DNA of 64,000 nucleotides, from IMG/VR virus record IMGVR_UViG_3300043399_001092, positions 15,320-79,319 of that record. One strand, 5' to 3'. Source of the DNA: a virus. Positions 24,254 to 62,764 of the stretch are shown in pieces. Both the position numbers and the translations under genes were made by a program. The notes under the pieces are model-generated. The model searched no databases. It worked only from the letters and a program-made list of their open reading frames with translations, and was not told the DNA's origin. How positions within the stretch are numbered: position 1 is the stretch's first letter; each line of letters starts with the position of its first letter.

Positions 24254-25109
24254 GTTTATAGCGTATGGTTTCTACAAATGACTTCCCGTTAATAACAGTT
24301 ACAACAGCTAAACCGTTGCACCAAACCTGTTTTTGTACTTTGGAAGCATAAGCAAAAACCGGAGCCGTGTGATCAGCCGCCGATCCTATTGCATAAGCCT
24401 CTACTTCTCTTTCGTGAAAAGACTGCTGCCGGTGTACATGTCCAAACATAACCGACTTCTTGATCTTCTGAAGATCGTTGTAAGCACAATGCTGATTGAA
24501 AGACTCTCCGTGGTATATCTTTAGATCACCCAAGATAAACTCATCCGCCGGATAACTTTCGTACACTTCGTAACCGCGTTGTATCAAACTCAGTGCTTCC
24601 ATTGGACTCTTTATGGCATCCCGGATTTTGGAGTTGTCTGAGTCTTTAATGTACCGGTTGTGGCGATGTTCATGGTTTCCCCACATGTACACTTTACGTT
24701 TGAACGGGTAGGATTCCAGAACATCCAAAACGCTGTTTCCCTCGGCGTACTCTTTTCCCAAAGTCAATCCGGGAATGGGTACTTTTCCACGATCGTGTGC
24801 AGAAAGAGAATTGAGGTCCAAGAAGTCACCGCCCAAAACAAGTCCAAAAGGTCTAATGGACTGTATCAAGTTGTTGATGCTCTCGAACATCTTACGGTTA
24901 TGAAACGGTACGTGAGCATCAAATATGCACACCCAGGTTCCATCCTGTTGAGTCTTTTCACCGTTACCGGACTTGGAGCTTTTCCAGTTCTTATAACGCT
25001 TTCTAAGAGCATTACCGCTCATGTCAAAACTCAAAGCTGCCTTTTGCCAAGTGACACTTTTGCCACCAGATTCAACACTTCTGAAAAACCTTTCAAGTTC
25101 GTGTTTCAT
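24219..25109 (-). CDS. Calcineurin-like metallophosphoesterase with N-terminal HTH-like segment
   Basis: DAH.P, GGDFLD, GNHE, HG and GHVH motifs; start moved to ATG 25109 just downstream of TATATTTG. Confidence 0.85.
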   Translation of the reverse strand: MKHELERFFRSVESGGKSVTWQKAALSFDMSGNALRKRYKNWKSSKSGNGEKTQQDGTWVCIFDAHVPFHNRKMFESINNLIQSIRPFGLVLGGDFLDLNSLSAHDRGKVPIPGLTLGKEYAEGNSVLDVLESYPFKRKVYMWGNHEHRHNRYIKDSDNSKIRDAIKSPMEALSLIQRGYEVYESYPADEFILGDLKIYHGESFNQHCAYNDLQKIKKSVMFGHVHRQQSFHEREVEAYAIGSAADHTAPVFAYASKVQKQVWCNGLAVVTVINGKSFVETIRYKHGKIVFGGKPY

Positions 25110-25117
25110 ACAGACTG

Positions 25118-25125
25118 CAAATATA
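25118..25125 (-). promoter_or_regulatory. Bacteroidota sigma-A -7 element (TATATTTG)
   Basis: Matches TAnnTTTG, 8 nt upstream of the phosphoesterase ATG; no clear -33 element. Confidence 0.55.
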
Positions 25126-25179
25126 GTACACAAATAACTGTTTTTTCGTTCCTGTCACAACAAAATAAAACAAGGGAGT

Positions 25180-44988: not shown

Positions 44989-45333
44989 AGTAGTTAATTA
45001 CCGTTTCTTCAGAGATGCTCTCTCCCCCTGGCCGCGATTAGGTTTTAACCTCTTCGCAACTTGGAGGACCTTACATCCCCGGATGACCAACAAGTTTCAT
45101 CTACGCCGTACGTTCGTCTCTCGACCTCACCTCCAGGAGAACTCCAAAAGCTAAAATATCCCCAATAGCACATGTTCTCCCCCGTAGAATCCCCTCCATG
45201 TTGATCTCACAGCCTCCCGTTCATTATGTTTCTCCTAAGAGCATGAACATCTTGCTGCCGAGAGCCAAGGTCTTTACTGCATTTCGAATGGTATGTATCC
45301 CTGGCGAGTCGGATCGCTATCTTCATAGCAACG

Positions 45334-45341
45334 CAAATATA
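45334..45341 (-). promoter_or_regulatory. Bacteroidota -7 element (TATATTTG) heading the minus-strand operon
   Basis: Exact TAnnTTTG at the divergence point. Confidence 0.55.
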
Positions 45342-45510
45342 CAACCACTTTACTCTGTTTTTAGTTCCTGCACTCAAAAAAATTTTTCTGGAAATTTTTG
45401 GAATCCTACAAAAAATTTTTATGGTGAGTTGTGGATGGGGGTTTCCCCCACCATACCCCGGTATTAACGACAGGGGCGATATTGCCCCCGTCATTCAAAA
45501 TAACTTCGTT

Positions 45511-46378: not shown

Positions 46379-46446
46379 GAAACATTCGTCCAGTGGTAGG
46401 ACACCTGATTCTTCAGGAGGCAAGGGTTCGATTCCCTTATGTTTCG
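46379..46446 (+). tRNA. tRNA-like RNA (Glu-type D arm) with collapsed 4-nt anticodon loop
   Basis: Acceptor GAAACAT/ATGTTTC, D arm GTCC-AGTGGTA-GGAC, CCTGA-TTCT-TCAGG, T arm AAGGG-TTCGATT-CCCTT. Confidence 0.75.
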
Positions 46447-46478
46447 CATTTCTTTCACCATTTAATTCTTTTTCTGTC

Positions 46479-52043: not shown

Positions 52044-52463
52044 ATGAGTTATCACACTTATTTTACCTGTAACGTGTACGGGGATATTAAAAACCGTAAG
52101 CGTATTGCGGAATTGGAAGAGGCTTTGGAAAAAGCCAAAGCTGAAGGTGGTGTTTTAGCTGAAGTAACTATTCCTCTGATTGAAAATGAATTGGAATGGG
52201 AGTTAGATTACGACATTGAAAATGAGATAGAAAATATAAGAAGTGAAAATGACGATGCCGCACTAAATGAATTTTGCGAATGGAAATATCACGAGGACGA
52301 CATGAAAGAAATTTCTCTCAAGCACCCAAATGTTCTCTTTGAATTAAGGGGATACGGAGATTCTCCTTGGGATGTGTGGGTCAAATACTTTTGCGACGGA
52401 ATGATGCAGGTGGCCAAAGTAACCATTACTGCTGAATCTGTTGATAAGAGCAAGTTTGTTTAA
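52044..52463 (+). CDS. Hypothetical acidic phage protein
   Basis: W...EDDM..IS..HP.VLF.L.G.G...D.W..YF..G pattern. Confidence 0.7.
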   Translation: MSYHTYFTCNVYGDIKNRKRIAELEEALEKAKAEGGVLAEVTIPLIENELEWELDYDIENEIENIRSENDDAALNEFCEWKYHEDDMKEISLKHPNVLFELRGYGDSPWDVWVKYFCDGMMQVAKVTITAESVDKSKFV

Positions 52464-52549
52464 TTTCAAAATCTATAAACGGATTGGCCCCGTAACTCAA
52501 TAGGATAGAGTAACTGCCTTCAAATTAGGAGCACTTTGGTAGTAATACC

Positions 52550-53074
52550 TTATGTGAATTTCGGCTGATCAGGAAAGACTAAAGTTACTAAACCATTATC
52601 AAATTCCCAATGGCAATTTGGACAAAGTTGAACAACGTTGCTTTCAGCGTTTACTTCTTTTAATTTTGCTGTTGGCTCAAAGGAGCTTAAAGGTTTTATG
52701 TGCGCTAACTCAACATGCTTTGAATATCCGCATATATGACAAGGCAAAGAAAGTTTATCTTTATGCCAACTTCTACAAAGACCTCTAATGTGAGCAAATT
52801 TACTTGACGCATGAAGTCTTTTGATACAATTCCGATTGGTATAATCTGCAAGGGTTAATTCGAGTAAACTTCTTTTTCTTCCTTTTAAGTAATCTTGAAA
52901 ATGGTATTCACAAAGTTTGCTTTTGTAATTTCGAACAACTGATTCGCACTGAGAACATTTTTTAGAAATCTTTCTTTTTGGAATCTTGTTGCTTTGTTTT
53001 GCAGCACAACTTTTTGAGCAAAACTTTGGATTTGAGGTTTCAATACCGCAATGAAAACAGTTTTTAGTAATCAT
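52550..53074 (-). CDS. HNH homing endonuclease with N-terminal Cys zinc-binding motifs, antisense within the intron
   Basis: CHICG...ELAHIKP...N...NVVQLCPNCHWEFD; N-terminal CxxC...CSKSC. Confidence 0.88.
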   Translation of the reverse strand: MITKNCFHCGIETSNPKFCSKSCAAKQSNKIPKRKISKKCSQCESVVRNYKSKLCEYHFQDYLKGRKRSLLELTLADYTNRNCIKRLHASSKFAHIRGLCRSWHKDKLSLPCHICGYSKHVELAHIKPLSSFEPTAKLKEVNAESNVVQLCPNCHWEFDNGLVTLVFPDQPKFT

Positions 53075-53172
53075 GTTAATCGTGAGTTGATTTAAGAAAT
53101 TAAGTTAACGCAGAGACTGTACGCCGAACACCCTACCGAATAATGTCGAGGGTGAAGAGACAGTCCAGACCA

Positions 53173-53180
53173 CAAATATA
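53173..53180 (-). promoter_or_regulatory. Candidate -7 promoter element (TATATTTG) for the antisense HNH gene
   Basis: Exact TAnnTTTG about 100 nt upstream of the HNH ATG, inside the intron 3' region. Confidence 0.55.
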
Positions 53181-53324
53181 CGAAACTTTTTCGAAAAACA
53201 CCTTTTTTCCGAAAATAAAATTTAGTTCGTATAGCGGTGAAAACCGTAGTTGGTAAGCTAAGCAGTAAGTTACTGGTTCGAGCCCAGTCGGGGTCACATT
53301 TATTCACACTTAAACACTATTTGT

Positions 53325-53954
53325 ATGCTACAAAAAGAATTTGTGCCAAAGGAATTGGCGATTAAACTCAGAGATCTGGATTTTAACGAACCTTGTTTGT
53401 TTGTTTATCGTATGGAATCCCTGTACACACCAATAGTTTCCAATTTCTTAGATAACTTGAAAGAGGAAATTGAGTGTTACCGTAACACTAAAATGGTTAA
53501 TTGGGTTTCTGCCCCAAGCTACTCACAAGCGTTTCGGTGGTTCCGGGAGGTGCATGGATTGGTTGTTGAAATCACAACAGGTGGTCGTCCAAAAGAATAC
53601 TATGTGTTCGTTGATGGTTATATCTACGATGAGTACGATACAAACAACCAAAAAAGTTTCTCTTATGACGATGCCCAAGAAGCGGCTTTGAAGCGGCTTA
53701 TTGAGCTTGTCGAAGAAAGACAGAAGCAACCTAAACCGGTTCCGGTTGAAAAGACGTTGCATACCCTGTCTATTTACGCAACCATTAACGAGAAGCTCCA
53801 GGAGGAAGGCTATGAGCCGATTACCTTCCAGAGGGCTGTTGAGTTAGGGTTGAACGAGAAAACTCAAGAGAGCGACGTTGAGAGCTTTGTAGAGTACTTC
53901 TACACGAAAGAAGATCAAGAGATGAACAACAAGGATGAAACATTGCCTTGTTGA
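53325..53954 (+). CDS. Conserved Bacteroidota-phage hypothetical protein
   Basis: FV..ELA.KL....FNEPC and SAP...QAFRWFRE..GL motifs. Confidence 0.75.
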   Translation: MLQKEFVPKELAIKLRDLDFNEPCLFVYRMESLYTPIVSNFLDNLKEEIECYRNTKMVNWVSAPSYSQAFRWFREVHGLVVEITTGGRPKEYYVFVDGYIYDEYDTNNQKSFSYDDAQEAALKRLIELVEERQKQPKPVPVEKTLHTLSIYATINEKLQEEGYEPITFQRAVELGLNEKTQESDVESFVEYFYTKEDQEMNNKDETLPC

Positions 53955-54237: not shown

Positions 54238-54311
54238 GGCCGGGTGGTGAAATGGTATGACGAGACTGCTTAACAGCGGTAGAGTTGTAGGTTCGAGACC
54301 TGCCCCAACCA
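54238..54311 (+). tRNA. Degenerate tRNA-like RNA with 4-nt loop in the anticodon arm
   Basis: T arm GTAGG-TTCGAGA-CCTGC, D-like GTGAAATGGTATGAC, ACTGCT-TAAC-AGCGGT; acceptor has two C/A mismatches. Confidence 0.6.
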
Positions 54312-54342
54312 CATTATTTAAATAACCTAAATTTTATTAATC

Positions 54343-54838: not shown

Positions 54839-54938
54839 GGCCGGGTGGCAAAGTGGTTAAGCACTGGTAGCAGATTCAAGAGATAGCATCAAATGTGTAA
54901 CTCCCAGAAGGACACTGGTTCGATTCCAGTCCCGGCCA
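54839..54938 (+). tRNA. tRNA-like RNA with 36-nt insert replacing the anticodon loop
   Basis: Perfect acceptor GGCCGGG/CCCGGCC, T arm ACTGG-TTCGATT-CCAGT, D loop with GG, CTGG/CCAG enclosing 54868-54903. Confidence 0.75.
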
Positions 54939-54942
54939 CAAA

Positions 54943-55081: not shown

Positions 55082-55207
55082 GGTCGGGTGGCGGAATTGG
55101 TAGACGCAGTTCGTAAGTGAGTAATAGAGTAAGCGTGGAAAATAGCACTACTCGGCTTATCGCCTCACAACGGGCTCCAATCACAGGTTCGAATCCTGTC
55201 CTGACCA
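55082..55207 (+). tRNA. tRNA-like RNA (Leu-type D arm) with ~55-nt structured extension of the anticodon arm
   Basis: Acceptor GGTCGGG/CCTGACC, D arm GCG-GAATTGGTAGA-CGC, T arm ACAGG-TTCGAAT-CCTGT; GTTCGT/ACGGGC, GTGAG/CTCAC and GAGTA/TACTC nested stems. Confidence 0.78.
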
Positions 55208-55234
55208 CATTATTTCACAACCAAATTTATTCAC

Positions 55235-60799: not shown

Positions 60800-62764
60800 A
60801 TGGAAGTTCTACTTACACCCAATCCCAAACGTTTTGTCCTTCTTCCCATTCAACATGATGCTGTCTGGGAAATGTACAAAAAGGCTCAAGCATCCTTCTG
60901 GACAGCCGAGGAGATAGACCTCGGTGATGATCTTGCTCACTGGAACAAGTTGACAGATGATGAGAAGCATTTTGTCAAACACATTTTGGCGTTTTTTGCT
61001 GCATCCGACGGTATTGTCAATGAGAATTTGGCCATCAACATGTTGGAAACGGTACAGATTCCAGAAGCAAGGTGCTTCTATGGATTCCAGATTGCTATCG
61101 AGAACATTCATTGCGTTTCTCCGGACACAGTTATATTGACCGACAAGGGTTACGAAAGAATAGAAAACCTGAAAGATAAGTCGGTTCGAGTATGGAACGG
61201 CAAAGAGTTTAGTGCAACAACTGTTGTACAAACATCAGAGTCTTCTGCTCTATTTAGAGTTACCCTTGACAACGGAATGTATCTTGATTGTACGGATGGA
61301 CACAAATGGTTAATCAGAAAAGGTAATCCGTTGCATCCAGAACTTTGCAAAGAAGTTCGAACAGAAACCAAAGACCTTAAGGTTGGTGATATTTTAATGA
61401 ATTGGGATACAACTGTAGTTAATGTAGAAAATCCTGATTACTTTAAGAATCCTTATACTCACGGTTTTTTCTGCGGTGACGGCACTTTTACAAACAATTA
61501 TCCTTTTGTAAAACTGTATTCCAAAGGAAAAAAAGATTTGTTGCTTGAGCACTTGGCCGTTTCTTCTTCAAGAGTGGTTAAGGATGGTATTTGTTGCTAT
61601 TTGACAGATTGTTTGAACAAAGAGAAATTCTTTGTGCCAATAAATTACAGTGTAGAAACAAAGCTGCGTTGGTTGGAAGGATATGTTGATGCTGATGGCT
61701 GTGTAAAAAGAAGTTTGAAGAATGAAGATACTGCTATTCAAATTTCTTCTGTCAATTATCAATTTATCAAAGATGTTCAACTTATGCTTACTACTCTCGG
61801 AGTTGTTTCTTCAGTAAAACTGGTACGAGAAAAAGGAAAGTATCTTCTTCCTGACGGCAAAGGTAGCAACAAAGAATACGAGTGCGAAGAGGCATCTGTT
61901 TTGTATATCACTTGTTCGTCTGTGCAAAAGCTCAGGTCTTTGGGTTTTGCTCCAAAAAGATTAGAGCTTAGCGAAAAAGCTGTTTCTGAAAAACGAAAAC
62001 TTGTTCGTGTAAAATCCATTGAACAAGTAAGTTCAGACAGCCCTACCTATTGTTTTAACGAACCTCTTGAGCACAAAGGTGTCTTTAACGGAATACTTAC
62101 TGGTCAAAGTGAAACCTACAGTCTGCTGATTGATACCTACATCAAAGACCCGGCGGAAAAGGAACACCTGTTCAATGCCATTGAGACCATTCCCTGTGTA
62201 CAAGAGAAAGCAAAGTGGGCACTCAAGTGGATTGAGAACGCTCCGTCCTTTGCACACCGTCTTATTGCCTTTGCCGCTGTCGAGGGTATCTTCTTCTCCG
62301 GTTCCTTCTGCGCTATCTTCTGGTTGAAGAAGCGTGGATTGATGCCAGGGCTTACGTTCTCCAACGAACTCATCAGCCGGGATGAAGGTATGCACACCGA
62401 TTTCGCGTGTCTCATGTTCTCCATGCTGAACGAAAAACCTGACAAAGCAGAGATTACGTCTATCATTGCTGAAGCCGTGGAGTACGAAGTACAGTTTGTA
62501 TCTGAAGCACTACCGGTGTCCCTCATCGGTATGAACGCGGATATGATGACTGACTACATCTACTTTGTTGCAGACCGGTTGTTGGTATCCTTGGGTTGCG
62601 AAAAGATCTACGATGTTCAGAATCCGTTTCCGTGGATGGAAATGATTTCGTTGCAAGGTAAGACCAACTTCTTTGAGAAAAGGGTTGGTGAATACCAGAA
62701 GGCCAACGTAATGAACAACAATGACCCGGAGAGCAAAAAGATTACTTTTGATACGGAGTTCTAA
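60800..62764 (+). CDS. nrdB: Class Ia ribonucleotide reductase beta subunit, intein-containing
   Basis: [24 protein letters not shown]^[21 protein letters not shown] and NFFEKRV motifs; 322 aa after intein removal. Confidence 0.95.
61112..62107 (+). mobile_element. Intein (332 aa) with LAGLIDADG endonuclease, C-terminal Gln
   Basis: Starts CVSPDT; block B CTDGHKW; GFFCGDG and LEGYVDADG motifs; ends NGILTGQ followed by Ser. Confidence 0.92.

What the first reader, a model, noticed from the sequence alone, without database searches (positions are those of the whole stretch)
52550..53180. Homing endonuclease encoded antisense, overlapping the ribozyme core, with a promoter hidden in the intron
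Seen: the HNH ORF runs opposite to the tRNA; its last codons overlap the P3 5' strand (52560-65), its leader is the antisense of the catalytic core, and TATATTTG lies at 53173-80. The same bases therefore encode ribozyme, protein and promoter. Inference: this solves expression from an untranslated host gene, and the antisense mRNA could also regulate splicing.
Basis: partly seen in the sequence, partly recalled or inferred. Interest (0 to 1): 0.7.

Follow-up and report, generated by a model that had tools for sequence, protein, structure and literature searches.

The report
Phage tRNA-Arg intron, backwards nuclease gene
A phage arginine-tRNA gene is split by a self-splicing-type (group I) intron that carries an intact DNA-cutting "homing" enzyme gene on the opposite strand. 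The layout is real and recurs in other uncultured phages, but the proposed hidden promoter is unproven and looks like ordinary intron sequence.

Summary
A tRNA-Arg(UCU) gene (52486-53296, +) is split between anticodon positions 34 and 35 by a 737-nt group I intron of the bacterial tRNA (IC3-like) type. The spliced exons give a canonical 74-nt tRNA. A 174-aa HNH endonuclease ORF (53074 to 52550, minus strand) fills the loop of an extended P5 helix.

Its first four codons and its last 13 codons plus the stop codon run through ribozyme strands, from the P5 extension to P2, including P3 at 52560-65. Helices P2, P3, P5ext, P6, P7, P8 and P9 all show compensatory changes in related introns.

The antisense layout recurs in at least six IMG/VR lineages with three unrelated HNH families. 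Sense-strand ORFs occur in sister introns. This HNH family is mostly free-standing beside tRNA(UCU) genes, and the intron-borne copies are not one exclusive clade.

TATATTTG is at 53180-53173 (minus), but it is made of the conserved J7/9 CACAAA plus the AU-rich base of P9. The same octamer sits at the same place in ORF-less introns. It is the only canonical Bacteroidota -7 box available to the ORF, yet nothing here shows that it works as a promoter. No RNA data exist.

This scan has already noted similar antisense endonuclease genes in phage tRNA-Leu and tmRNA introns. Verdict: a new variant of a known kind, of moderate interest.

The parts
52486..52520 (+). tRNA-Arg(UCU) 5' exon (acceptor, D arm, anticodon stem, C32 U33 U34)
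   Evidence: ARAGORN with introns allowed finds the split gene. The joined exons fold as a canonical tRNA-Arg(tct).
52521..53257 (+). Group I intron, 737 nt, IC3-like tRNA type. It is inserted between positions 34 and 35, which would be 'Arg.3Ug' in Williams' naming.
   Evidence: U52520 pairs with G52529 as the wobble pair, and the intron ends in omega-G 53257. Rfam Intron_gpI gives a partial hit at 53052-53184 (17.5 bits). The ORF-less relative L081 passes the Rfam cut-off at 63.9 bits.
52525..52531 (+). Internal guide sequence UUAGGAG. GAG plus G52528 pair with C52518-C52521 (exon CUU plus the first intron base) to form P1. UUAG can pair with the 3' exon CUAA to form P10.
   Evidence: Read directly from the sequence. 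AGGAG is conserved in all related introns.
52532..52556 (+). P2 hairpin with a GUAA loop. The ORF's stop codon (52550-52) lies in its 3' strand.
   Evidence: P2 differs in sequence but stays paired in L088, L007, L070 and L089.
52560..52565 (+). P3 5' strand UUCGGC
   Evidence: Pairs with 53123-28. Eight different, fully paired P3 versions occur across the nine related introns compared.
52569..52573 (+). P4 5' strand UCAGG, followed by J4/5 AAA (52574-76)
   Evidence: Placed by comparison with L081, L083, L084 and L162. It pairs with 53080-85, with a G-G mismatch or bulged G53082.
52584..52592 (+). 5' strand of the P5 extension that closes the ORF-bearing loop
   Evidence: Nine base pairs with 53063-71. 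The equivalent helix has a different sequence in L088, L007, L070 and L162.
52550..53074 (-). HNH homing-endonuclease ORF, 174 aa (two CxxC zinc knuckles plus an HNH_2 domain)
   Evidence: There are 72 relatives in IMG/VR.
53063..53071 (+). 3' strand of the P5 extension, which is also codons 2-4 of the ORF on the other strand. The start codon (53072-74) sits in the internal loop next to P5 (53075-77).
53080..53085 (+). P4 3' strand, inside the 12-nt block GUUAAUCGUGAG that is invariant among the window, L007 and L070
53086..53109 (+). P6 hairpin, 10 bp with a GAAA loop
53115..53120 (+). P7 5' strand
   Evidence: Pairs with 53160-65. The G-C pair changes to A-U or U-A in relatives. Aligned by Rfam.
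53123..53128 (+). P3 3' strand GCCGAA
53129..53154 (+). P8 hairpin
53155..53165 (+). J8/7 (53155-59) and the P7 3' strand (53160-65)
   Evidence: The 19-nt block is conserved in 16 IMG/VR stretches.
53173..53180 (-). TATATTTG, a match to the Bacteroidota -7 box. On the + strand it is CAAA of J7/9 plus UAUA, the base of P9.
   Evidence: The same octamer occurs in ORF-less introns. Function is not shown.
53177..53233 (+). P9 stem-loop (UAUACGAA paired with UUCGUAUA)
53234..53257 (+). P9a hairpin (GAAA loop), the UGGU strand that pairs with ACCA 53169-72, and omega-G
53258..53296 (+). tRNA-Arg(UCU) 3' exon. CCA is not encoded.

Best explanation
This is a composite mobile element in an uncultured freshwater phage, probably one that infects Bacteroidota. 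It consists of a self-splicing-type group I intron in the anticodon loop of the phage's tRNA-Arg(UCU) gene, with an HNH homing-endonuclease gene lodged on the opposite strand.

Shown here:
- the intron architecture;
- an intact HNH ORF inside the loop of the extended P5 helix;
- overlap between ORF and ribozyme at both ends of the ORF ('core creep');
- the same layout in other phages;
- membership of the nuclease in a family that otherwise sits free-standing beside tRNA(UCU) genes.

Inferred:
- The + strand precursor splices itself to give tRNA-Arg(UCU).
- The nuclease is made from a separate minus-strand transcript that starts in or beyond the 3' half of the intron, so its leader is complementary to the catalytic core.
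- The nuclease cuts or nicks intron-less tRNA-Arg(UCU) alleles of co-infecting phages, and repair copies the intron and the nuclease gene into them.
- The intron interrupts the tRNA gene's anticodon-loop sequence, which would protect the carrier if the nuclease recognises the insertion site.

The antisense orientation most likely reflects capture of a self-sufficient free-standing nuclease gene in either orientation, not a need to escape an untranslated host gene. TATATTTG at 53180-53173 is the only canonical host-type -7 box available to the ORF. I give it about 40% odds of being the working promoter. If it is, it is pre-existing intron sequence put to a second use.
For: Intron:
- The -1 U is paired with G, the intron ends in omega-G, and the guide sequence is present.
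- Rfam aligns P7/P3'/P8/P7', and the ORF-less relative L081 scores 63.9 bits against a cut-off of 50.
- P2, P3, P5ext, P6, P7, P8 and P9 keep pairing through different sequences in up to nine related introns.
- The spliced product is a canonical tRNA.

Nuclease:
- Pfam HNH_2 at 7e-10 and phrog_1271.
- The zinc cysteines and the His/Asn/His positions align with the TagI HNH domain.
- Intact homologues at 43-61% identity occur in dozens of contigs.

Recurrence of the antisense layout:
- L007, L070, L088 and L162 carry the same HNH family.
- L089 carries an unrelated HNH (phrog_2255, 3e-27) in the same intron lineage, with its stop codon inside P4.
- L131 and L238 carry a third family in P6.

Link to tRNA(UCU):
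- 37 of 72 family loci have a strict UCU anticodon arm within 200 nt of the ORF, against 6 such arms in the remaining 364 kb. ARAGORN also calls tRNA-Arg(tct) within 0-30 nt in many loci.
- In the tree, the intron-borne copies lie in one well-supported 13-row clade with free-standing copies. The window's protein is sister to free-standing L001, and at least two changes of state are forced.
- Free-standing relatives lack the CTCACGATTAAC leader, so that leader is intron core.

Other:
- Empty target sites exist: more than 120 viral stretches carry an intron-less tRNA with the identical 18-nt anticodon arm.
- Host type: the RNR gene is closest to Tenacibaculum phages, and no Shine-Dalgarno sequence precedes the genes read.
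- 53180 is the only minus-strand TAnnTTTG between 53075 and 55228.
- The 35 nt before the AUG are predicted to be unstructured.
Against: - No splicing, transcription or cleavage data exist.
- P4 in the window's lineage has a G-G mismatch or a bulged G (CAGG against CGUG), where L162, L081, L083 and L084 pair perfectly. Ribozyme activity is therefore inferred from conservation only.
- The window's intron itself does not reach the Rfam cut-off (17.5 bits against 50), presumably because about 470 nt are inserted in P5.
- Promoter: the octamer is ancestral intron sequence that is also present in ORF-less introns. There is no -33 TTTG at 19-21 nt. Lineages L007/L070 and L162 lack it at this site. 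Genome-wide, the motif is barely above shuffled expectation.
- Target: free-standing relatives sit next to intact tRNA(UCU) genes, so the recognition site need not be the anticodon loop.
Confidence: 0.8

Rival explanations
1. TATATTTG at 53180-53173 is a dedicated promoter that evolved inside the ribozyme so that the nuclease can be expressed from an untranslated tRNA gene, and the resulting antisense RNA also controls splicing.
For: - It is an exact match to the Bacteroidota -7 consensus and the only one on that strand within 2 kb upstream of the ORF.
- The same octamer stands in front of the RNR gene (60748, 44 nt before the ATG) and at two other likely promoters (25125 and 45341, minus strand).
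- The motif is kept in L088 and L089 even though their cargo ORFs differ.
- L162 has TATATTTG, with TTTG 19 nt upstream of it, 33 nt before its antisense ATG, in an expanded P6.
Against: - The identical octamer sits at the same place in ORF-less tRNA-Arg introns, and TAnnTTTG is there in 77 stretches, most of them ORF-less. Its presence is therefore explained by intron structure (CACAAA plus the AU-rich base of P9).
- Among ORF-bearing introns the motif does not track orientation: about 5 antisense and 3 sense with it, and about 2-3 antisense and 3-4 sense without it.
- There is no -33 element.
- Sense ORFs in sister introns show that antisense placement is not needed.
- Nothing supports regulation of splicing.
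Confidence: 0.3
2. The nuclease gene is transcribed from some other start: a non-consensus host promoter, a phage-specific promoter or phage RNA polymerase, or antisense read-through from further downstream. The octamer is coincidental.
For: - Two minus-strand sites (25125 and 45341) share a roughly 40-nt extended element upstream of TATATTTGC that the intron site lacks, which suggests phage-specific promoter classes.
- L007/L070 keep an intact antisense ORF with no TAnnTTTG anywhere upstream.
- The giant virion ORFs are compatible with a crAss-like phage that may bring its own polymerase.
Against: No alternative motif was found. The sigma-70-type scan gave one weak site at 53407-53380, below shuffled expectation.
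Confidence: 0.4
3. The ORF is a silent passenger on its way to decay, or the intron is a dead insertion that has inactivated the tRNA gene.
For: No expression data exist. P4 has a mismatch. There is no Shine-Dalgarno sequence and no clear terminator for the antisense unit.
Against: - The ORF is full-length, and all zinc and catalytic positions align.
- Homologues in the same layout have diverged to about 55% identity yet remain open.
- Ribozyme helices show compensatory changes.
- Both splice sites are exact, and the spliced tRNA is canonical.
Confidence: 0.08

Closest known systems
Bacterial tRNA group I introns (subgroup IC3): Anabaena/Nostoc tRNA-Leu(UAA) 'Leu.3Ug', Agrobacterium tRNA-Arg(CCU) 'Arg.5Ug', Azoarcus tRNA-Ile. 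Catalogued in 21 settings by Williams 2020 (bioRxiv 10.1101/2020.01.27.920355).
   Same: The intron lies in the anticodon loop, with a short P1 next to the anticodon stem. The core has J3/4 and J4/5 adenines, and J8/7-P7 reads GAAGAGAcAGUCC. It has U at -1 and G at omega. The insertion position, after nucleotide 34, is the same as in the tRNA-Leu intron.
   Different: The host gene is a phage tRNA-Arg(UCU), whereas the classical Arg intron is in tRNA-Arg(CCU) after position 36. The intron carries a 174-codon ORF on the opposite strand in an extended P5. A 2014 review stated that all phage group I introns then known were in protein genes (PMC3984707). I could not read Williams' table, so I cannot say whether 'Arg.3Ug' is among his 17 new bacterial classes.
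I-DirII, an antisense homing-endonuclease gene in a Didymium iridis rDNA group I intron (described in PMC3073962, citing Johansen et al. 2006)
   Same: The endonuclease gene lies on the strand opposite a non-coding host RNA gene, and it is expressed from its own promoter inside or next to the intron.
   Different: I-DirII is eukaryotic, with a Pol II promoter, a spliceosomal intron and a poly(A) tail. It is a His-Cys box enzyme and its host gene is rRNA. In the window no promoter has been demonstrated.
I-Ssp6803I in the Synechocystis tRNA-fMet group I intron (Bonocora and Shub 2001, listed in PMC3984707)
   Same: An intron-encoded endonuclease associated with the anticodon region of a tRNA gene.
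   Different: The enzyme family is different. As far as I recall, its gene is on the sense strand; I did not check this here.
Free-standing homing endonucleases in phage tRNA clusters, e.g. T4 SegB (PMC2330249), and 'collaborative homing' of a free-standing nuclease with an ORF-less intron (F-CphI with the cyanophage psbA intron; from my own knowledge)
   Same: Most members of the window's HNH family sit within 0-30 nt of phage tRNA genes, in either orientation. The tree mixes free-standing and intron-borne copies.
   Different: In the window the nuclease gene lies inside the intron, not beside the gene. SegB is a GIY-YIG enzyme, not an HNH enzyme.
'Core creep' of intron ORFs into ribozyme sequence (PMC3073962)
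   Same: The ORF ends extend into structural helices. The 13-residue C-terminal tail is not conserved in homologues (matches stop at residues 160-165) and is dictated by P5ext-P4-P3-P2.
   Different: The overlap is on the antisense strand, so the protein reads the complement of the ribozyme strands.

Membership tests
Group I intron (Rfam RF00028; tRNA-type, IC3-like) | Conserved core helices P3-P8 with the P3/P7 pseudoknot, and the J8/7 and J4/5 joining segments | tested here: met
   All helices were located, and all but P4 show compensatory changes in relatives. Rfam aligns P7/P3'/P8/J8/7/P7'. P4 has one G-G mismatch or bulge.
Group I intron (Rfam RF00028; tRNA-type, IC3-like) | U at -1 in a G-U wobble pair in P1, and G at the last intron position | tested here: met
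   U52520 pairs with G52529, and the last intron base is G53257. Removing exactly 52521-53257 gives a canonical tRNA.
Group I intron (Rfam RF00028; tRNA-type, IC3-like) | Score at or above the family's gathering cut-off | tested here: not met
   The window scores 17.5 bits against 50; the model is split by the insert of about 470 nt in P5. The ORF-less homologue L081 scores 63.9 bits.
Group I intron (Rfam RF00028; tRNA-type, IC3-like) | Guanosine-dependent self-splicing | not testable with these tools
   Needs an in-vitro splicing assay or RNA reads across the ligated exons. No RNA run is listed.
HNH homing endonuclease (Pfam PF13391 HNH_2) | Domain match above the curated cut-off | tested here: met
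   39 bits against a cut-off of 21, E 7e-10, residues 112-165. phrog_1271 at 7.5e-11.
HNH homing endonuclease (Pfam PF13391 HNH_2) | Beta-beta-alpha-metal motif: catalytic His, Asn and His, and CxxC...CxxC zinc ligands | tested here: met
   CHIC...AHIKP...ESNVVQLCPNCH aligns with the TagI and McrA HNH domains.
HNH homing endonuclease (Pfam PF13391 HNH_2) | Site-specific cleavage of the allele that lacks the element, followed by gene conversion | not testable with these tools
   Only context is available: the ORF lies in an intron, its relatives lie beside tRNA(UCU) genes, and intron-less alleles exist.
Bacteroidota primary-sigma promoter (-7 TAnnTTTG, -33 TTTG) | -7 box | tested here: met
   TATATTTG at 53180-53173 on the minus strand.
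Bacteroidota primary-sigma promoter (-7 TAnnTTTG, -33 TTTG) | -33 TTTG about 19-21 nt upstream | tested here: not met
   At that spacing the sequence reads GGTG. The -33 region is also not conserved in L088 or L089.
Bacteroidota primary-sigma promoter (-7 TAnnTTTG, -33 TTTG) | Presence explained by selection for transcription, i.e. specific to introns with an antisense ORF | tested here: not met
   The same octamer is at the same site in ORF-less introns, and 77 stretches carry TAnnTTTG there, most of them ORF-less.
Bacteroidota primary-sigma promoter (-7 TAnnTTTG, -33 TTTG) | A mapped transcription start a few bases downstream | not testable with these tools
   No RNA holder is listed.
Antisense intron-encoded endonuclease gene with its own promoter (I-DirII type) | ORF on the strand opposite the host RNA gene, inside the intron | tested here: met
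Antisense intron-encoded endonuclease gene with its own promoter (I-DirII type) | Independent transcription unit demonstrated | not testable with these tools
   No RNA data.

The most novel reading that the evidence does not exclude
A lineage of phage HNH endonucleases tied to tRNA(UCU) genes moves repeatedly between free-standing sites beside the tRNA and antisense residence in the P5 loop of the tRNA-Arg(UCU) group I intron. In the intron it is transcribed from a structural piece of the ribozyme (J7/9 plus the base of P9) that doubles as a host -7 promoter. The resulting mRNA, whose roughly 90-nt leader is perfectly complementary to P4'-P7', would pair with the pre-tRNA and so couple nuclease expression to splicing and to the supply of tRNA-Arg.
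Probability: 0.1. Interest if true: 0.75.

Novelty: new variant of a known kind. Interest (0 to 1): 0.5.

Why it matters
Group I introns with homing endonucleases are textbook mobile elements. Three aspects here are not textbook.

- The host gene is a phage tRNA gene. A 2014 review found no phage introns outside protein genes.
- The nuclease gene is on the antisense strand, and its ends read through the complement of ribozyme helices.
- The nuclease family otherwise lives free-standing beside the same kind of tRNA gene.

Together these give a natural series (free-standing, antisense-intronic and sense-intronic, with three unrelated HNH families) for testing how nucleases and introns merge, and how a nuclease gene is expressed without disturbing a ribozyme. 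In practical terms, such split tRNA genes are missed by default tRNA and Rfam scans, so phage tRNA repertoires are under-called.

Tried and rejected
- Default ARAGORN and the Rfam gathering-threshold scan do not call this tRNA or intron.
- blastn of 52400-53400 against cultured phages found nothing. tblastn of the HNH protein found only three weak records.
- Sequencing runs: no RNA holder is listed. The only full holders are the probable source freshwater metagenome, so expression could not be examined.
- The sigma-70-type scan gave one weak minus-strand site inside the next gene, below shuffled expectation. Two + strand terminator-like hairpins inside the ORF are not significant.
- I first thought the -7 box was enriched in introns with an antisense ORF (4 of 6 lineages, against about 6% of 75 other introns). 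A targeted scan overturned this: the motif is common in ORF-less introns.
- I looked for a shared extended promoter element between the intron site and the 25125/45341 sites. The only similarity is of low complexity, so I rejected it.
- I tested whether the conserved CTCACGATTAAC leader came in with the nuclease gene. Free-standing relatives lack it, and it matches P4'/J5/4 of ORF-less introns, so it is intron sequence.
- ARAGORN labels this gene tRNA-SeC(tca) with a 721-nt intron at position 39. I rejected that in favour of CTT|...G|CTAA, which obeys the group I rules and gives a canonical tRNA.
- L121 was a chance match of the 15-mer inside a coding region.
- Literature searches found no description of antisense HNH genes in phage or bacterial tRNA introns. 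The library is incomplete, so this is not proof of absence.
Full report
SETTING. The window is bases 15320-79319 of a single 79,319-bp viral contig that is held by a freshwater metagenome. Genes up to 44982 are on the minus strand and include several giant ORFs. From 45198 onward almost every gene is on the plus strand. The ribonucleotide reductase beta gene is closest to those of Tenacibaculum phages, and the genes around the finding lack Shine-Dalgarno sequences. A Bacteroidota host is therefore a reasonable assumption. The ORF in question is the one clear minus-strand gene inside the plus-strand block.

OBSERVATION. The gene is missed by default tools. ARAGORN with introns allowed finds a split tRNA at 52486-53297. 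Group I rules require U before the 5' splice site and G as the last intron base. They place the intron at 52521-53257, between CTT and CTAA of the anticodon loop. The joined exons fold as a canonical 74-nt tRNA-Arg(UCU).

Rfam at a relaxed threshold aligns P7, P3', P8, J8/7 and P7' at 53052-53184 (17.5 bits). The score is low because about 470 nt are inserted in P5. A 258-nt ORF-less homologue in another viral contig (L081) scores 63.9 bits, above the cut-off of 50.

The minus-strand ORF 53074 to 52550 encodes 174 aa with two CxxC knuckles and an HNH_2 domain (Pfam 7e-10; phrog_1271). Its zinc and catalytic positions align with the TagI and McrA HNH domains.

ANATOMY. I compared the intron with ORF-less relatives (L081, L084) and with other ORF-bearing relatives. 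The window's intron reads as follows.
- P1: exon CUU plus C52521, paired with G52528-G52531.
- P2: 52532-56.
- P3: 52560-65 with 53123-28.
- P4: 52569-73 with 53080-85.
- J4/5: AAA.
- P5: 52577-79 with 53075-77.
- An internal loop, then a 9-bp P5 extension, 52584-92 with 53063-71, that closes the ORF-bearing loop.
- P6: 53086-109.
- P7: 53115-20 with 53160-65.
- P8: 53129-54.
- ACCA 53169-72 paired with UGGU 53251-54.
- P9: 53177-233.
- A GAAA hairpin at 53234-47.

P3 occurs in eight different, fully paired versions across the nine introns compared. P2, the P5 extension, P6, P7, P8 and P9 also change while keeping their pairing. P4 is the exception: in the window, L088, L007, L070 and L089 it is CAGG against CGUG (a G-G mismatch or a bulged G), whereas L162, L081, L083 and L084 pair perfectly.

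The ORF's start codon (53072-74) lies in the internal loop next to P5, and codons 2-4 are the complement of the P5-extension 3' strand. The last 13 codons run through the complement of the P5 extension, P5, J4/5, P4, J3/4, P3 and J2/3, and the stop codon lies in P2. That tail is not conserved in homologues, whose matches end at residues 160-165. It is therefore sequence dictated by the ribozyme, the antisense form of what reviews call 'core creep' (PMC3073962).

THE LAYOUT RECURS. The same HNH family lies antisense in a tRNA-Arg(UCU) intron at the same splice position in L007, L070, L088 and L162. L089 has the same intron lineage but a different, unrelated HNH (phrog_2255 at 3e-27, with no similarity to the window's protein). 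That ORF is also antisense in the P5 loop, and its stop codon lies inside P4. L131 and L238 carry a third HNH family antisense in P6.

Sense-strand HNH ORFs occur in sister tRNA introns: L083 (HNH_3, preceded by the guide sequence AGGAG acting as a ribosome-binding site), L107/L152, L111, L150, L226, L235 and L251. Both orientations are thus common.

Group I introns in phage tRNA genes are themselves abundant. A 15-nt core motif hits at least 120 viral stretches, mostly introns of about 200 nt in anticodon loops.

WHERE THE NUCLEASE COMES FROM. Of the 72 IMG/VR loci encoding relatives, most have the gene free-standing within 0-30 nt of a tRNA gene, in either orientation. The commonest neighbour is tRNA-Arg(UCU). 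A strict search for a UCU anticodon arm finds one within 200 nt of the ORF in 37 of 72 loci, against six in the remaining 364 kb.

In a maximum-likelihood tree the intron-borne proteins fall in one well-supported 13-member clade together with free-standing ones. The window's protein is sister to free-standing L001, and well-supported branches force at least two changes of state. Free-standing relatives do not carry the CTCACGATTAAC leader found before the intronic start codons, so that leader is the complement of P4'/J5/4. Intron-less tRNA-Arg(UCU) genes with the identical 18-nt anticodon arm are very common in viral contigs, so empty sites exist.

This fits the known picture in which free-standing nucleases and ORF-less introns that share a target merge. 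It also explains an arbitrary orientation without any special need.

THE PROMOTER. TATATTTG is present on the minus strand at 53180-53173 and matches the Bacteroidota -7 consensus. Points in its favour:
- It is the only such motif on that strand between 53075 and 55228.
- The same octamer precedes the RNR gene by 44 nt and stands at two other plausible promoters.
- L088 and L089 keep it.
- L162 has the octamer, with TTTG 19 nt upstream of it, 33 nt before its antisense start codon in an enlarged P6.
- The predicted leader is unstructured for about 35 nt before the AUG.

Points against:
- TAnnTTTG is only marginally more frequent in this genome than in shuffles, and one hit in 250 nt has roughly a 13% chance.
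- There is no -33 TTTG.
- CAAA belongs to the CACAAA segment conserved in over a hundred introns, and UAUA is the base of the P9 stem.
- A targeted scan found TAnnTTTG at exactly this place in 77 viral stretches, most of them ORF-less. These include the exact octamer in ORF-less 359-nt tRNA-Arg(UCU) introns.
- Among ORF-bearing introns the motif does not follow ORF orientation.
- L007 and L070 have the antisense ORF with no such motif.

The octamer's presence is therefore explained by ribozyme sequence. It may still be used as a promoter, which I put at about 40%, but nothing here shows that. No RNA data are available.

COMPARISON WITH WHAT IS KNOWN. The intron belongs with the bacterial tRNA (IC3) introns. 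In Williams' naming it would be 'Arg.3Ug', unlike the classical Arg.5Ug of tRNA-Arg(CCU). His table was not readable, so I cannot say whether this class is listed for bacteria.

A 2014 review states that all phage group I introns known then were in protein-coding genes (PMC3984707). The closest precedent for an antisense intron-borne endonuclease gene with its own promoter is I-DirII of Didymium rDNA (PMC3073962).

Earlier follow-ups in this scan reported antisense HNH or LAGLIDADG genes in phage tRNA-Leu and tmRNA introns. The theme is therefore recurrent in this data set, though I found no published description.

VERDICT. It is a new variant of a known kind of mobile element, of moderate interest.

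Noticed in passing
window 60800-62764 (+): This 654-aa ribonucleotide reductase beta ORF matches phage RNR-beta genes in two pieces that cover only about half of it. It probably holds an intein or another large insertion.
   Followed up: no
window 46379-46447, 54238-54312, 54839-54939, 55082-55208 (+): Four tRNA-shaped genes have abnormal anticodon arms. ARAGORN reports 2-nt 'anticodons' or 29-50 nt inserts. Rfam calls two of them tRNA. They are not group I introns.
   Followed up: no
window 25085-25132 and 45301-45348 (minus strand): Two sites share an element of about 40 nt (TTTT..TG.CAGGAAC.AAAAACAG...) directly upstream of TATATTTGC. This may be a phage-specific promoter class for the minus-strand (structural) block.
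   Followed up: partly
L011:2931-3595, L008, L002, L005, L012, L013 (strand opposite the HNH gene): In the closest free-standing relatives, the HNH gene and a UCU-anticodon tRNA-like gene with a reduced D arm and a long variable arm lie between what look like the 5' and 3' halves of another tRNA. This may be a nuclease-plus-tRNA cassette inserted into a tRNA gene without any group I core.
   Followed up: partly
L089:1467-1970 (+), i.e. G001:C1:42532-45550: The same tRNA-Arg(UCU) intron lineage carries an unrelated HNH (phrog_2255, no Pfam hit), also antisense. Its stop codon TGA is the complement of the P4 strand UCAGG.
   Followed up: yes
window 52570-52573 and 53081-53084; same positions in L088, L007, L070, L089: P4 has a conserved G-G mismatch or bulged G (CAGG against CGUG) in five antisense-HNH introns, while L162 and three other relatives (ORF-less L081 and L084, sense-ORF L083) pair perfectly. 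The 12-nt block GUUAAUCGUGAG is invariant among the window, L007 and L070. That may reflect a double constraint from the ribozyme and the translation-start region.
   Followed up: partly
L090-L169, L210-L277 (IMG/VR): Group I introns in phage tRNA genes (Leu, Arg, Met, Lys and others by ARAGORN's rough labels) are abundant in viral contigs. Most are about 200 nt and ORF-less. Some with the same core motif sit in protein-coding genes (L221, L237, L266, L271).
   Followed up: partly
window 52634-52661 and 52987-53016 (+): Two terminator-like hairpins with T runs lie on the tRNA strand inside the ORF-bearing loop. This is not significant against shuffles, but they could attenuate the precursor transcript.
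   Followed up: no
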